Assembly: GCF_003018255.1 (NCBI RefSeq)
Contig: NZ_CP027440.1
DNA from: Escherichia coli
GTDB lineage: Bacteria; Pseudomonadota; Gammaproteobacteria; Enterobacterales; Enterobacteriaceae
Strand: one strand, 5' to 3'
DNA: 64,000 nt
Shown in pieces: positions 47,901 to 50,900 of the stretch (within the stretch, counting starts at the first letter, position 1; every line of letters begins with the position of its first letter). The position numbers were made by a program.

Positions 47901-50900
47901 TCCGGTTTTAATTTAATGAGAAGATCTTCCCACTCCTACTTGCTTAAACATACTACGTCAGGCTCACCATCAGTAACTAACTCTTCATTATTATCAAAGT
48001 GTACGTTGAATACTTTTAAGTTATTTTCATCAACATCATATTTAATACGTTTTAATTGTTCTCCAGCTCCCATAATGACAAAGGCGTTGCCTTCTTGATA
48101 TATACATTCAGACATTATTTTTTGTAAAGTTTCAAGAGCACCGCGATACATCCCTGAGGCAGCTTCCTTACAAATTAAATTTATAATACTATAAGCTAGT
48201 AGCTCCATGGGGTTGGAAGAATTGTTTTCATTACAACTTCCACTACCCAAAACTGTATTAACGTTATGACCATTACTTTTACTAACTAACATTGTCTATT
48301 CCTCAGTTAATGTCTACATGGCTATGTTTAACGTTATTACTGTTTGTCATTATAAAAAACCGCTCATTTGAGACAATTGCTGACATTAACTGTTTCACTT
48401 GCTACGCATGGACTTTTTAATTAAATTAGCACAAGAATGTTAAATTTAATAAACAAAAAGTTATTTCGCTGTATGATAAAAACCAACCGTTATGATTTAT
48501 TAGTGGAATTCGTTTTTCGAGTGTTAGAAATTTATATCTAAATAGCGTTAATTAATGAGCAAAGCCAGACTCCTGTAACGCTCATAAGACTCATCTGCCT
48601 GCGGCGGGTGTTCTGGTCAGTAGTAGATATTTAAGGCGTGGCAGAGACATTTCATCCTTACTCTACGGCATTGGTCCACATACAAATCGTGGTTGTGACA
48701 CTTCACTTATCATCAGTGAGCGAACAGAGAATAGTTCAGTGATTTGAGTAATTAACCTGATTAAATGAAGAGGCATGATAAATGATAATACTCTGGCTTT
48801 ATCGTTAATTACTTAATTCCACATGTAAGCAATTTGCCCGCTTGGCATAGCGGGCATTTTTTCCAGGTACTTTTGAATGAGTACTGATGGATAAATACAT
48901 TGCAGTGGCGTGCCACGTACCAAAACACCAGCCCTCATTCGAAACCACCCACCGCACTTCTTCCTTTAAATGGCGTTAGTCATGAAATATAGACCGCCAT
49001 CGAGTACCCCTTGTACCCTTAACTCTTCCTGATACATGAATGATGATTTGGTGGCCCCTGCTGGACTTGAACCAGCGACCGGGCGATTATGAGTCGCCTG
49101 CTCTAACCACTGAACTAAAGGGCCTTAAGTATGCAATAACAATACTTATAAACCACGCAATAAACATGATGATCTTATGATGTAAATAACAGATTTTTAT
49201 GCGTTCTCATCCATCCTGGGTCGTCAATACATGCGACATAAATCCCGACACCGCTTCCATTCGCAAAGTCGATACTCGCAGTCAACAAGCATGTTAATAA
49301 TAAGCACTATCTATAGTTATCATCGATTCAATGATAGTTTGTAATGATTTTGTATCTAATAATATAACTTTATTACATTAGCTGAAGAGTTTTCGCATCA
49401 TGATGATATCTGTTACTTTTCACTCCATAAAAATAAACTTCATATAGCAATATATTCTTTTATAGAACTTATTCTGCTAATCATTAGTTTCGTATGAGCG
49501 ATTTTTGACAGTTGCCTCTCCAGACCAAATCGATAATTAAAAAAACAGATTTAAGCATTATCCTTTTCCATATGAATATTGGATAAAAGTAGGACATCTG
49601 TTTGCAATTACTTTCACAACAATTAAACATTTTTATGTTTCCGTATACACCTTATTACTCTACCATTAGAGGAACTTTATTATGTTTTCTATAAAACCAG
49701 GACCAGGAAATTTACCTATCGACAACCCCACATTGTTATCATGGAACATTACTGACGGGGATCTAAATTCCAAATTAAATACATTAGAATATCTAAACTG
49801 TATAACAAATATTATTAATGCTTGTGGAGTTTATCCTCAGGATTTAAAAGACAGAGAAATTATATCAACTTTTCACGCAGAAAAAGTCATTAATGATCTG
49901 TTAAAAAACGATTATAAAATTTCCCTTTCTCCAGATACAACTTACCGAGAGCTGAATAAAGCTGCACAGCGTAGCATTACAGCGCCAGACAGGATAGGAG
50001 AAGGGAAAACATGGGTTTATCAACGAGATACAATGGTTGAAAGAGGTGATAACAGAGGCGTTCATCAGTATGGTCCAGCTGAACATTTCACTCACATTAT
50101 ATCTGACAAACCATCCCCAAAAGATAAGTATGTTGCATATGCTATTAACATTCCTGACTATGAGCTAGCAGCCGATGTATATAATATTAACGTGACGTCA
50201 CCTTCCGGACAGCAAGAAACATTTAAAATACTAATCAATCCAGAACATCTACGGCAAACACTTGAGCGTAAATCTCTTACTGCTGTTCAGAAATCACAAT
50301 GTGAAATCATCACCCCCAAAAAACCTGGCGAAGCGATTCTTCATGCTTTTAATGCCACCTACCAGCAAATCAGGGAAAATATGTCTGAGTTTGCACGTTC
50401 CCATTATGGGTATATACAAATTCCTCCAGTGACAACTTTCCGCGCCGACGGACCAGAAACTCCCGAAGAAGAAAAAGGTTACTGGTTTCACGCTTATCAA
50501 CCCGAAGATCTTTGTACCATCCATAATCCAATGGGAGATTTGCAGGATTTTATCGCATTGGTTAAAGATGCTAAAAAATTTGGTATCGATATCATTCCTG
50601 ATTATACCTTTAACTTTATGGGAATTGGGGGTAGTGGTAAAAATGACCTGGATTATCCCTCTGCTGATATACGAGCGAAGATCAGTAAAGATATAGAAAG
50701 TGGTATCCCTGGCTATTGGCAAGGTCAGGTTTTGATTCCATTTACTATAGATCCAGTAACAAAAGAACGTAAACAAATCCATCCAGAAGATATACATCTC
50801 ACTGCAAAAGACTTTGAAACAAGTAAAGATAACATCTCTAAGGATGAATGGGAAAACCTCCATGCATTAAAAGAAAAGCGTTTAAATGGAATGCCTAAAA

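What the first reader, a model, noticed from the sequence alone, without database searches (positions are those of the whole stretch)
48836..48863. Second orphan plus-strand terminator-like hairpin upstream of tRNA-Ile
gcccgc-ttggcata-gcgggc followed by ATTTTTTCC lies in an AT-rich, ORF-free stretch between the interrupted ypjB/C frame and ileY. On the minus strand the same hairpin lacks a U-tract, so it is plus-strand specific. It is a candidate 3' end for a small non-coding transcript originating within 48300-48830.
Basis: seen in the sequence. Interest (0 to 1): 0.25.

Follow-up and report, generated by a model that had tools for sequence, protein, structure and literature searches.

The report
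Conserved terminator of candidate small RNA
The hairpin is a textbook plus-strand transcription terminator inside a 70-base stretch that is almost unchanged between E. coli and E. albertii, so it probably ends a short unannotated RNA beside the tRNA gene ileY; no transcript ending there has been seen, and most E. coli, including K-12, carry a base change that weakens the hairpin.

Summary
Window 48835-48856 is a perfect 8-bp, GC-rich stem with a 6-nt loop, followed by TTTTTT, and it reads as a terminator on the plus strand only. Motifs of this quality occur 8 times in the 64-kb window against 0.2 expected by chance.

The window is E. coli (ypjCB pseudogene, hairpin, ileY). The hairpin lies in a 70-nt core (48795-48864) that differs by one loop base between E. 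coli and E. albertii. Flanking non-coding DNA is only 53-84% identical. In 93 E. coli sequences the core has 1 variable site, against 18 in 150 flanking bases.

An invariant GATAAT box sits 5 nt upstream of where conservation begins.

Against this: no Rfam match, no annotation, and no Term-seq 3' end in K-12. The one variable core site (48852 G/A) breaks a stem pair (-15.0 to -8.8 kcal/mol), and at least 56% of genomes with the locus, including K-12, carry the A allele. K-12 data show weak plus-strand RNA stopped by Rho about 70 nt downstream.

Verdict: a real intrinsic terminator and a plausible unannotated small-RNA gene. Expression is unproven.

The parts
48835..48856 (+). Terminator stem-loop: TGCCCGCT / loop TGGCAT / AGCGGGCA (8 bp, 6 of them G-C).
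   Evidence: The hairpin alone is -15.0 kcal/mol. The stem is identical in E. albertii, with one loop base changed.
48857..48862 (+). Run of six T directly after the stem (the U tract of the RNA).
   Evidence: It is invariant in 93 E. coli-type sequences and in the E. albertii types. In strain O68:H12 97.3 an IS903B insertion displaces it.
48852..48852 (+). G/A polymorphism in the 3' arm. G (the window) pairs with C48839. A (K-12) gives a C.A mismatch.
   Evidence: The hairpin weakens from -15.0 to -8.8 kcal/mol. The window 70-mer (G) is identical in 989 genomes and the K-12 70-mer (A) in 1726, out of 3087 genomes with the locus. Both alleles occur on all four common upstream haplotypes. G is ancestral by the E. 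albertii outgroup.
48795..48834 (+). Invariant 40-nt body upstream of the hairpin (GGCTTTATCGTTAATTACTTAATTCCACATGTAAGCAATT). This is the predicted 5' part of the small RNA.
   Evidence: It is 100% identical between E. coli and E. albertii and has no segregating site in 93 E. coli sequences.
48784..48789 (+). GATAAT, a -10-like hexamer. Five variable bases (ACTCT in E. coli, GTTAC in E. albertii) separate it from the start of the invariant core.
   Evidence: It is invariant in all E. coli and E. albertii sequences. In E. albertii the scan calls ATTACA-18-GATAAT as promoter-like, 9 of 12 matches. Its function is inferred, not shown.
48752..48779 (+). Alternative promoter-like site, TTAACC-16-CATGAT in the window. 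K-12-type strains have TTAACC-16-TATAAT.
   Evidence: It scores 10 of 12 in K-12 but 8 of 12 in the window, where it is not called. The -10 hexamer is polymorphic in E. coli and reads TACAAA in E. albertii, so it is not conserved.
48871..48944 (.). Imperfect inverted repeat downstream of the terminator. The outer arms TTTTGAATGAG / CTCATTCGAAA are conserved.
   Evidence: It is 83.5% identical between species. One E. albertii strain has a near-perfect hairpin of about 35 bp here. Its role is unknown.
48914..48965 (+). C-rich, G-poor tract on the plus strand, resembling a Rho loading (rut) site.
   Evidence: Composition is 19-21 C against 5-9 G per 50 nt. The 'orphan' plus-strand Rho termination region of Adams et al. 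at K-12 2785647 maps to window 48934.
49049..49124 (-). ileY, tRNA-Ile2 (anticodon CAU), convergent with the hairpin.
   Evidence: ARAGORN labels it tRNA-Met because of the CAT anticodon.

Best explanation
The hairpin is the factor-independent (intrinsic) terminator of a very short plus-strand transcription unit: an unannotated, conserved small-RNA-like gene that converges on ileY.

Proposed working:
1. RNA polymerase starts about 7 nt after the invariant GATAAT box (48784-48789), near G48795/96. In K-12-type strains a start a few bases earlier, from TTAACC-16-TATAAT, is also possible.
2. It transcribes the invariant 40-nt AU-rich body.
3. The 8-bp GC stem forms, and the RNA is released in the U6 tract around 48860-48862. 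The product is about 68 nt.
4. Transcripts that escape the hairpin are stopped by Rho in the C-rich tract at 48914-48965, before they run antisense into ileY. Escape should be common in strains with the A allele at 48852, such as K-12.

Shown: the motif, its non-random quality, its cross-species conservation and its polymorphism pattern. K-12 has plus-strand RNA with bicyclomycin-sensitive termination about 70 nt downstream.

Inferred: the start site, the RNA's existence as a discrete species, and any regulatory role, for example base-pairing through the invariant body.
For: 1. Motif quality. The stem is 8 bp with U6 immediately after it. Only 8 such motifs occur in 64 kb, against 0.2 +/- 0.5 in shuffles. 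A d'Aubenton-Carafa-type score is 26.5 (the formula was recalled from memory).

2. Cross-species conservation.
- E. albertii has the element next to its own ileY although it lacks ypjCB, ypjA and CP4-57.
- The core 48795-48864 is 69/70 identical.
- For comparison: ileY 93%, the inverted repeat 83.5%, the promoter-side flank 73%, the ileY-amylase spacer 67%, the tRNA-proximal trailer 53%. Four-fold degenerate sites of glaH and lhgO are 76.5% and 87.9% identical.
- The probability of at most 1 change in 70 neutral sites is 1.3e-3 to 1.6e-7.

3. Within E. coli. In 93 sequences from genomes, viral contigs and metagenomes, segregating sites number 8/56 upstream, 1/70 in the core and 10/94 downstream. 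Fisher p = 0.0085.

4. A sharp boundary. GATAAT is invariant, the next 5 nt differ at 4 positions between species, and invariance begins after that. This is the pattern expected for a -10 box, a free discriminator and a +1.

5. Orphan in both species. No plus-strand gene lies within about 350 nt upstream.

6. K-12 data (Adams et al. 2021, PMC7815308). Plus-strand DirectRNA-seq reads were 55 upstream and 19 downstream of 2785647 untreated, and 114 and 154 with bicyclomycin. The Rho score is 3.9, class 'orphan'. That position is window 48934, inside the C-rich tract. RNA polymerase holoenzyme binds this spacer in vitro (Shimada 2014 and 2017).
Against: - No 3' end near 2785570-2785577 (+) appears in the curated Term-seq lists for K-12 in LB at OD 0.4, LB at OD 2.0 or M63.
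- No ncRNA is annotated in K-12 or in any of the E. coli RefSeq records that were listed.
- No Rfam family reaches threshold in E. coli or E. albertii.
- No paper in the held library contains the sequence.
- The only common variant in the core weakens the terminator by 6.2 kcal/mol and is the majority allele, with 1726 exact K-12-type 70-mers among 3087 genomes. This argues for relaxed constraint on termination in E. coli.
- There is no compensatory covariation in the stem. Support comes from invariance only.
- Both promoter candidates are modest (8-10 of 12 matches), and the spacer is flagged as H-NS-bound.
- Conservation alone cannot say which strand is functional, or whether RNA or DNA is the constrained molecule.
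- No convincing local target emerged. The best duplex with 139 translation-initiation regions in the window was -23.1 kcal/mol, against a shuffle median of -23.8.
Confidence: 0.5

Rival explanations
1. Insulating terminator only. The hairpin, backed up by the downstream C-rich Rho site, exists to stop pervasive plus-strand transcription from the AT-rich, H-NS-bound ypjC spacer before it runs antisense into the convergent tRNA gene ileY. The short RNA it releases is a by-product with no function of its own.
For: The hairpin converges on ileY, 190 nt from the tRNA's 3' end. An intrinsic signal and a Rho signal sit in tandem on the same strand. The spacer binds RNA polymerase and H-NS. Promoter-like sites are frequent in this AT-rich DNA.
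Against: An insulator needs only the stem and the U tract. It does not explain why the 40 nt upstream of the stem are invariant within E. coli and between E. coli and E. albertii, while the DNA on both sides diverges. It also does not explain why conservation starts 5 nt after an invariant -10-like box. The high frequency of the stem-weakening allele would be surprising if protecting ileY mattered much.
Confidence: 0.2
2. The constrained molecule is not a plus-strand small RNA. The conserved core would work either on the minus strand, as part of the ileY 3' trailer or as a small protein, or as a DNA site. In that case the terminator-like look on the plus strand is secondary.
For: A 39-codon minus-strand ORF (48928-48809, MFWYVARHCNVFIHQYSFKSTWKKCPLCQAGKLLTCGIK) spans the hairpin. 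It is open with the same length and stop codon in E. albertii, where it starts with ATG. PGAP calls a 94-aa hypothetical protein over the site in some genomes. The minus-strand RNA folds at least as well (-20.6 kcal/mol, z = -2.9). ileY transcripts read past the tRNA and are Rho-terminated.
Against: - The N-terminal half of the minus-strand ORF differs at 7 of 22 residues between species, while the part inside the core is identical at the nucleotide level. That is conservation of sequence, not of codons.
- Several frames on both strands are open here, because the region is conserved and partly palindromic.
- There is no Pfam or NCBIfam match.
- No coordinate from this region appears in the held supplement of Stringer et al. 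2021.
- The perfectly kept T6 run has an obvious role only on the plus strand.
- No minus-strand Term-seq 3' end is recorded here.
Confidence: 0.13
3. Relic. The hairpin terminated a plus-strand gene that was lost when islands rearranged the ileY flank, and it now decays neutrally.
For: ileY is a hot spot for integration and rearrangement: prophages, integrase islands and IS elements sit at or near it in different strains. Most genomes carry a damaging change either in the stem or in the TATAAT box, and only about 288 of 3089 have both intact to within one mismatch.
Against: The element is kept almost unchanged in E. albertii, which has a different left flank and no upstream gene either. The core is significantly less variable than its flanks, both within E. 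coli and between species. No similarity to any phage, or to any true plasmid, was found in the spacer.
Confidence: 0.1
4. Chance inverted repeat followed by T's in AT-rich DNA.
For: Under loose criteria, terminator-like sites are no more frequent in 46-51 kb than in shuffles.
Against: Under strict criteria the expectation is 0.2 per 64 kb on both strands, which is about 0.002 for this spacer. The motif is also conserved across species.
Confidence: 0.02

Closest known systems
Canonical intrinsic (Rho-independent) terminators of E. coli
   Same: It has a GC-rich 8-bp stem, a 6-nt loop and six U's directly after the stem. Hairpin energy and tail score fall in the range of working terminators.
   Different: It follows no annotated gene. 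No 3' end has been mapped at it. The commonest natural allele carries a C.A mismatch in the stem.
Stand-alone intergenic base-pairing small RNAs of enterobacteria (own promoter, 50-100 nt body, terminator with a U tail that binds Hfq), many found by promoter-plus-terminator searches
   Same: The architecture matches: a -10-like box, an invariant AU-rich body of about 40 nt, then a terminator with U6, about 68 nt in all. Like many accessory small RNAs it lies beside a tRNA gene and island junction. The strongest conservation is in the single-stranded body.
   Different: Expression, Hfq or ProQ binding and targets are all untested. It is absent from Rfam and from K-12 annotation. It occurs only in E. 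coli lineages that carry ileY (about 57% of complete genomes) and in E. albertii. It is absent upstream of glaH in the Salmonella and Citrobacter loci examined.
Tandem intrinsic plus Rho-dependent termination, and terminators placed between convergent genes
   Same: A hairpin terminator is followed about 60-100 nt later by a C-rich tract where Rho-dependent termination was mapped in K-12. Both face a convergent gene.
   Different: The hairpin is not bidirectional, because the minus strand has no U tract. The convergent partner, ileY, is itself ended by Rho close to the tRNA.
tRNA-spacer-derived regulatory RNA such as 3'ETS-leuZ
   Same: A short conserved RNA element containing a terminator lies next to a tRNA gene.
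   Different: 3'ETS-leuZ is cut from the tRNA transcript on the same strand. Here the terminator reads on the strand opposite to ileY, so it cannot be part of the ileY precursor.
Leader-peptide transcription attenuators (his, ilv, trp leaders)
   Same: A tiny ORF with two AUA codons (ATG ATA ATA ..., 48782-48808) precedes a terminator, beside the gene for the tRNA that reads AUA.
   Different: No alternative antiterminator pairing with the 5' arm exists. The second AUA is AUG in E. albertii. The ORF starts upstream of the conserved core, and no downstream gene would be controlled. This reading was rejected.

Membership tests
Intrinsic (Rho-independent) terminator | A stable GC-rich stem-loop of roughly 5-14 bp with a loop of 3-8 nt. 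| tested here: met
   The stem is 8 bp (6 G-C) with a 6-nt loop, at -15.0 kcal/mol. The K-12 allele gives -8.8 kcal/mol.
Intrinsic (Rho-independent) terminator | A U-rich tract immediately 3' of the stem on the transcribed strand. | tested here: met
   TTTTTT starts at the first base after the stem on the plus strand. The minus strand has AAATTGCTT instead.
Intrinsic (Rho-independent) terminator | RNA 3' ends map in the U tract in vivo or in vitro. | tested here: not met
   No plus-strand 3' end at 27855xx appears in the curated K-12 Term-seq lists (Adams et al. 2021). K-12 has the weakened allele and low expression, and only about 900-1200 top ends per condition are listed. No data exist for a perfect-stem strain.
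Intrinsic (Rho-independent) terminator | More frequent or better formed than chance. | tested here: met
   There are 8 sites of this grade in the window against 0.2 +/- 0.5 in shuffles.
Stand-alone bacterial small RNA gene | Its own promoter and a primary 5' end. | tested here: inconclusive
   Only sequence evidence is available. GATAAT is invariant 5 nt before the conserved core. ATTACA-18-GATAAT scores 9 of 12 in E. albertii and TTAACC-16-TATAAT scores 10 of 12 in K-12. No start-site data could be retrieved.
Stand-alone bacterial small RNA gene | A discrete stable transcript is detected. | tested here: not met
   It is not in K-12 annotation, in Rfam or in the Term-seq lists. Only diffuse plus-strand reads with Rho-dependent termination downstream were seen.
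Stand-alone bacterial small RNA gene | Sequence conservation beyond the neutral level, concentrated in the RNA body and terminator. | tested here: met
   The core is 69/70 identical between E. coli and E. albertii, against 53-84% in the flanks. Segregating sites are 1/70 in the core against 18/150 in the flanks, p = 0.0085.
Stand-alone bacterial small RNA gene | Structure supported by compensatory base changes. | tested here: not met
   The stem is invariant except for one disruptive G-to-A change. No compensated pair was seen in the roughly 100 sequences examined.
Stand-alone bacterial small RNA gene | Chaperone (Hfq or ProQ) binding and identified targets. | not testable with these tools
   The RIL-seq supplement is not held. 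A duplex scan against translation-initiation regions in the window was no better than shuffles.
Any Rfam family | A covariance-model score at or above the family's gathering threshold. | tested here: not met
   Only tRNA passes. All other hits fall far below their thresholds.

The most novel reading that the evidence does not exclude
A previously unrecognised small RNA gene of about 68 nt, shared by E. coli and E. albertii, converges on ileY. Its terminator is naturally polymorphic: the ancestral perfect stem releases a discrete small RNA. The recurrent G-to-A allele, present in K-12, typical O157:H7 and most other carriers, lets polymerase read on to a Rho site. Strains would then differ in whether they make the small RNA or an unstable longer transcript. 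That would also explain why decades of K-12 screens missed it.
Probability: 0.3. Interest if true: 0.55.

Novelty: new member of a known kind. Interest (0 to 1): 0.4.

Why it matters
If the small RNA is real, it adds a conserved regulator to the most intensively annotated bacterial genome. It would also show that reliance on K-12, which carries a crippled terminator allele, can hide genes that are intact in other lineages. The polymorphism offers a natural allele swap for testing how a single stem mismatch shifts termination from intrinsic to Rho-dependent in vivo. If it is not real, the locus is still a clean case of a strongly conserved non-coding element beside a tRNA integration hot spot that needs another explanation. 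Either way the result is of specialist rather than general importance.

Tried and rejected
- Known RNA families. Rfam at permissive thresholds on the window (44-52 kb) and on the E. albertii locus found only tRNA.
- Mobile-element origin. No phage match. The three 'plasmid' matches are 4.8-4.9 Mb chromosomes mislabelled in PLSDB. The viral-contig hits are all the same E. coli chromosomal locus.
- Other genomic contexts.
  - The exact hairpin pattern across one genome per species found only a K-12-like contaminant contig in a Planococcaceae MAG. That scan missed E. albertii because of one loop change.
  - A 24-mer from the core across metagenomes gave 72 loci, all of E. coli or E. albertii type and all in the same context.
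- Relic gene upstream. No conserved plus-strand ORF exists. The 34-aa and 42-aa ORFs in 48292-48742 are broken by indels in K-12.
- Attenuator with an AUA-AUA leader peptide. Rejected: there is no antiterminator and the feature is not conserved.
- Small proteins over the site. No family matches. The substitution pattern does not look like coding sequence. No coordinate from this region appears in the held Stringer et al. 2021 supplement.
- Local targets. The duplex scan was no better than shuffled controls.
- ypjCB homologues outside Escherichia and Shigella as a route to other species. None were listed. Salmonella and Citrobacter glaH loci lack ileY and the element.
- Literature.
  - Supplements of Cappable-seq, SMRT-Cappable-seq, APERO, Conway 2014, Dar & Sorek 2018 and RIL-seq 2016 were either not held or had no entry.
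  - Thomason 2015 and Ju 2019 are not held.
  - The searches on 'b2651' and Esr41 were irrelevant.
  - Searching for the sequence itself found nothing.
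Full report
**What is in the sequence**

Window 48835-48864 reads TGCCCGCT TGGCAT AGCGGGCA TTTTTT CC. As plus-strand RNA it folds into an 8-bp stem (6 G-C pairs) with a 6-nt loop, followed at once by six U's. The hairpin alone is -15.0 kcal/mol. On the minus strand the same stem is followed by AAAUUGCUU, so only the plus strand looks like an intrinsic terminator.

The tool's loose terminator scan finds no enrichment in 46-51 kb (5 sites against 3.0 +/- 1.9). I therefore ran a stricter scan: a perfect stem of at least 7 bp with at least 5 G-C pairs, a loop of 3-8 nt, and at least 6 T in the next 8 bases. It finds 8 sites on both strands of the 64-kb window, against 0.2 +/- 0.5 in 40 dinucleotide-preserving shuffles.

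**Where it is**

The window is E. coli, 100% identical to strain AR_0077 over the 900 bases tested. The local order is:
- ypjA;
- a recombinase remnant;
- the ypjCB pseudogene (minus strand);
- a 756-bp AT-rich spacer;
- ileY (tRNA-Ile2, anticodon CAU, minus strand, 49049-49124);
- an amylase-family gene;
- glaH.

The hairpin lies in the spacer, 190 nt beyond the 3' end of ileY and facing it. In K-12 MG1655 the equivalent hairpin is at 2785548-2785569, and nothing is annotated there. The locus is present in 3087-3095 of 5426 complete E. coli genomes, in one copy and never on a plasmid.

**Comparative evidence**

The exact hairpin pattern was found in no other species' representative genome, apart from a K-12-like contaminant contig. 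A search through the neighbouring amylase gene then found the E. albertii locus. E. albertii lacks CP4-57, ypjA and ypjCB. It nevertheless has ileY and, beside it, the same element with a perfect stem and one changed loop base. That loop change is why the exact-pattern scan missed it.

Identity between the window and E. albertii, by segment:

| Segment | Identity |
|---|---|
| Core 48795-48864 | 69/70 |
| ileY | 93% |
| Downstream inverted repeat | 83.5% |
| 55 nt upstream of the core | 73% |
| ileY-amylase spacer | 67% |
| tRNA-proximal trailer | 53% |
| Four-fold sites, glaH | 76.5% |
| Four-fold sites, lhgO | 87.9% |

The probability of at most one change in 70 neutral sites is 1.3e-3 with the most conservative baseline and 1.6e-7 with the glaH baseline.

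Within E. coli I compared 93 sequences from genomes, viral contigs and metagenomes. Segregating sites number 8 of 56 upstream, 1 of 70 in the core and 10 of 94 downstream (Fisher p = 0.0085). The core is therefore under purifying selection.

The left edge of the core is sharp. An invariant GATAAT (48784-48789) is followed by five bases that differ at four positions between the species. Invariance begins after those five bases. That is the pattern expected for a -10 box, a free discriminator and a transcription start. It predicts an RNA of about 68 nt: an invariant 40-nt AU-rich body plus the terminator.

A second promoter-like site, TTAACC-16-TATAAT, scores 10 of 12 in K-12. It is degraded to CATGAT in the window and to TACAAA in E. 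albertii, and it is polymorphic in E. coli, so it is not the conserved one.

**The polymorphism**

The single segregating site in the core is 48852. G (the window) completes the stem. A (K-12) gives a C.A mismatch and weakens the hairpin from -15.0 to -8.8 kcal/mol. A d'Aubenton-Carafa-type terminator score falls from 26.5 to -0.8 (the formula was recalled from memory).

Among the 3087 genomes with the locus, the window's 70-mer (G) is identical in 989 and the K-12 70-mer (A) in 1726. The E. albertii outgroup shows that G is ancestral. A occurs on all four common upstream haplotypes and in typical O157:H7, but not in its O55:H7 relative. This means either recurrent mutation or repeated recombination.

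A laboratory evolution study of K-12 reports a further G-to-A change two bases away in the same arm: position 2,785,563, frequency 0.19 in one population (Graves et al. 2019, PMC6928379). That favours a mutational hot spot. Only about 288 of 3089 genomes match, to within one mismatch, the haplotype that has both the TATAAT box and the perfect stem.

**Experimental evidence from the literature (K-12 only)**

Adams et al. 2021 (PMC7815308) list no plus-strand Term-seq 3' end at 27855xx in three growth conditions. They do list an 'orphan' plus-strand Rho termination region at 2785647. DirectRNA-seq reads there were 55 upstream and 19 downstream when untreated, and 114 and 154 with bicyclomycin, giving a Rho score of 3.9.

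That coordinate is window 48934. It falls inside a plus-strand tract with 19-21 C and 5-9 G per 50 nt, which is typical of a Rho loading site. So weak plus-strand transcription does cross this spot in K-12, and Rho stops it about 70 nt past the weakened hairpin.

The same study shows that ileY's own transcript is Rho-terminated close to the tRNA, so the hairpin is not ileY's terminator. Genomic SELEX places RNA polymerase holoenzyme and H-NS in this spacer (Shimada 2014 and 2017).

**Most likely mechanism**

The hairpin is the intrinsic terminator of a short, unannotated, conserved plus-strand unit. The unit consists of a -10 box at 48784-48789, a start near 48795 and release in the U tract near 48860. 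A Rho site acts as a backstop before ileY.

I give 0.5 to this being a functional small-RNA gene. I give about 0.85 to the narrower claim that the hairpin is, or ancestrally was, a real plus-strand terminator.

The steps that are shown are the motif, its statistics, the conservation and polymorphism, and the K-12 plus-strand RNA with its Rho dependence. The steps that are inferred are the start site, the discrete RNA and any regulatory role.

**Rivals**

- A pure insulator protecting ileY from antisense transcription (0.2). It does not explain the invariant 40 nt upstream of the stem.
- A minus-strand or DNA-level function (0.13). A 39-codon minus-strand ORF spans the hairpin and is open in both species. 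Its N-terminal half differs at 7 of 22 residues, while the core part is identical at the nucleotide level. It has no family match, and no coordinate from this region appears in the held Stringer et al. 2021 supplement.
- A relic of a lost gene (0.1). This is contradicted by conservation in E. albertii, where there is no upstream gene either.
- Chance (0.02).

**Comparison with what is known**

It works like a canonical intrinsic terminator and is built like a stand-alone enterobacterial small RNA. It meets the sequence-level criteria of both. It fails or lacks the experimental ones: a mapped 3' end, a detected transcript, chaperone binding and covariation.

It is not in Rfam, not in K-12 or other RefSeq annotation, and its sequence appears in no paper of the held library. 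I classify it as a new member of a known kind, pending proof of expression.

**Limits**

- The comparative power rests on two species and on closely related E. coli lineages.
- The conservation window was chosen after seeing the data. With about 20 independent 70-nt windows in the compared non-coding DNA, the conservative P becomes about 0.03.
- All transcript data come from K-12, which has the weakened allele.
- Most start-site and 3'-end supplements could not be read.

Noticed in passing
window 48871-48944 (E. albertii L018 4194-4267): An imperfect inverted repeat of about 75 nt lies just downstream of the terminator. Its outer 11-bp arms are conserved between species. In one E. albertii genome the inner arms are a perfect complement, giving a hairpin of about 35 bp (-46.9 kcal/mol for the repeat alone; fold z = -7.8 for the 186-nt region containing it). 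Two other E. albertii-type contigs (L035, L074) keep an imperfect 5' arm that more closely resembles E. coli's. This looks like a templated quasi-palindrome correction. The function is unknown.
   Followed up: partly
window 48850 and 48852 (K-12 2785563 and 2785565): Two independent G-to-A changes hit the same stem arm. One is the natural polymorphism, found on all four common upstream haplotypes. The other is a 19%-frequency variant in a gallium-resistance evolution experiment with K-12 (PMC6928379). This suggests a mutational hot spot, C to T on the minus strand, inside the hairpin.
   Followed up: partly
window 48782-48808: A tiny plus-strand ORF, ATG ATA ATA CTC TGG CTT TAT CGT TAA, has two consecutive AUA codons. 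AUA is the rare codon read by the adjacent ileY tRNA. A GAGG sits 8 nt upstream. The ORF is open in E. albertii but its second AUA is AUG there. I judged it a coincidence.
   Followed up: yes
window 48887-48979: A plus-strand 30-codon ORF (MDKYIAVACHVPKHQPSFETTH...) overlaps the inverted repeat. It stays open in E. albertii (36 aa) with 3 synonymous and 2 non-synonymous codon changes in its core. This is not statistically distinguishable from chance. It has no family match, and no coordinate from this region appears in the held Stringer et al. 2021 supplement.
   Followed up: partly
window 46666-46693: Another plus-strand terminator-like hairpin (AAGGGGTTACGT GAAA GCGTAGCCCCTT, 12 pairs) lies between the recombinase remnant and the 3' end of ypjCB. 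Its tail is poor (TTACTTTGGT).
   Followed up: no
window 47132-48292 (ypjCB): ypjCB is a pseudogene here, with an internal stop. Across E. coli its protein is unusually diverse, 76-100% identity among full-length copies. Homologues were listed only from Escherichia and Shigella.
   Followed up: partly
ileY flank in other strains (L003, L004, L005, L009, L012, L013): The ileY 3' side is a rearrangement hot spot. A P2-like prophage or integrase islands sit between the conserved block and ileY. An IS3 lies at about 48903. IS903B is inserted exactly after the hairpin stem, replacing the T tract. In one strain a CP4-57-like island abuts ileY directly.
   Followed up: partly
window 49049-49124: ARAGORN labels ileY as tRNA-Met because of the CAT anticodon. 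RefSeq annotates it as tRNA-Ile. The tRNA gene varies among lineages at several positions (for example CCGGGCG, CCAAGCG and CCGGACG).
   Followed up: no
L011 (DEQI01000374.1) and PLSDB records NZ_CP134663.1, NZ_CP141089.1, NZ_OL790696.1: A 2.8-kb contig in a 'Planococcaceae bacterium UBA3370' MAG matches K-12 at every position where K-12 differs from the window in the stretch aligned, so it is likely contamination. Three 4.8-4.9 Mb 'plasmid' records in PLSDB are E. coli chromosomes.
   Followed up: yes
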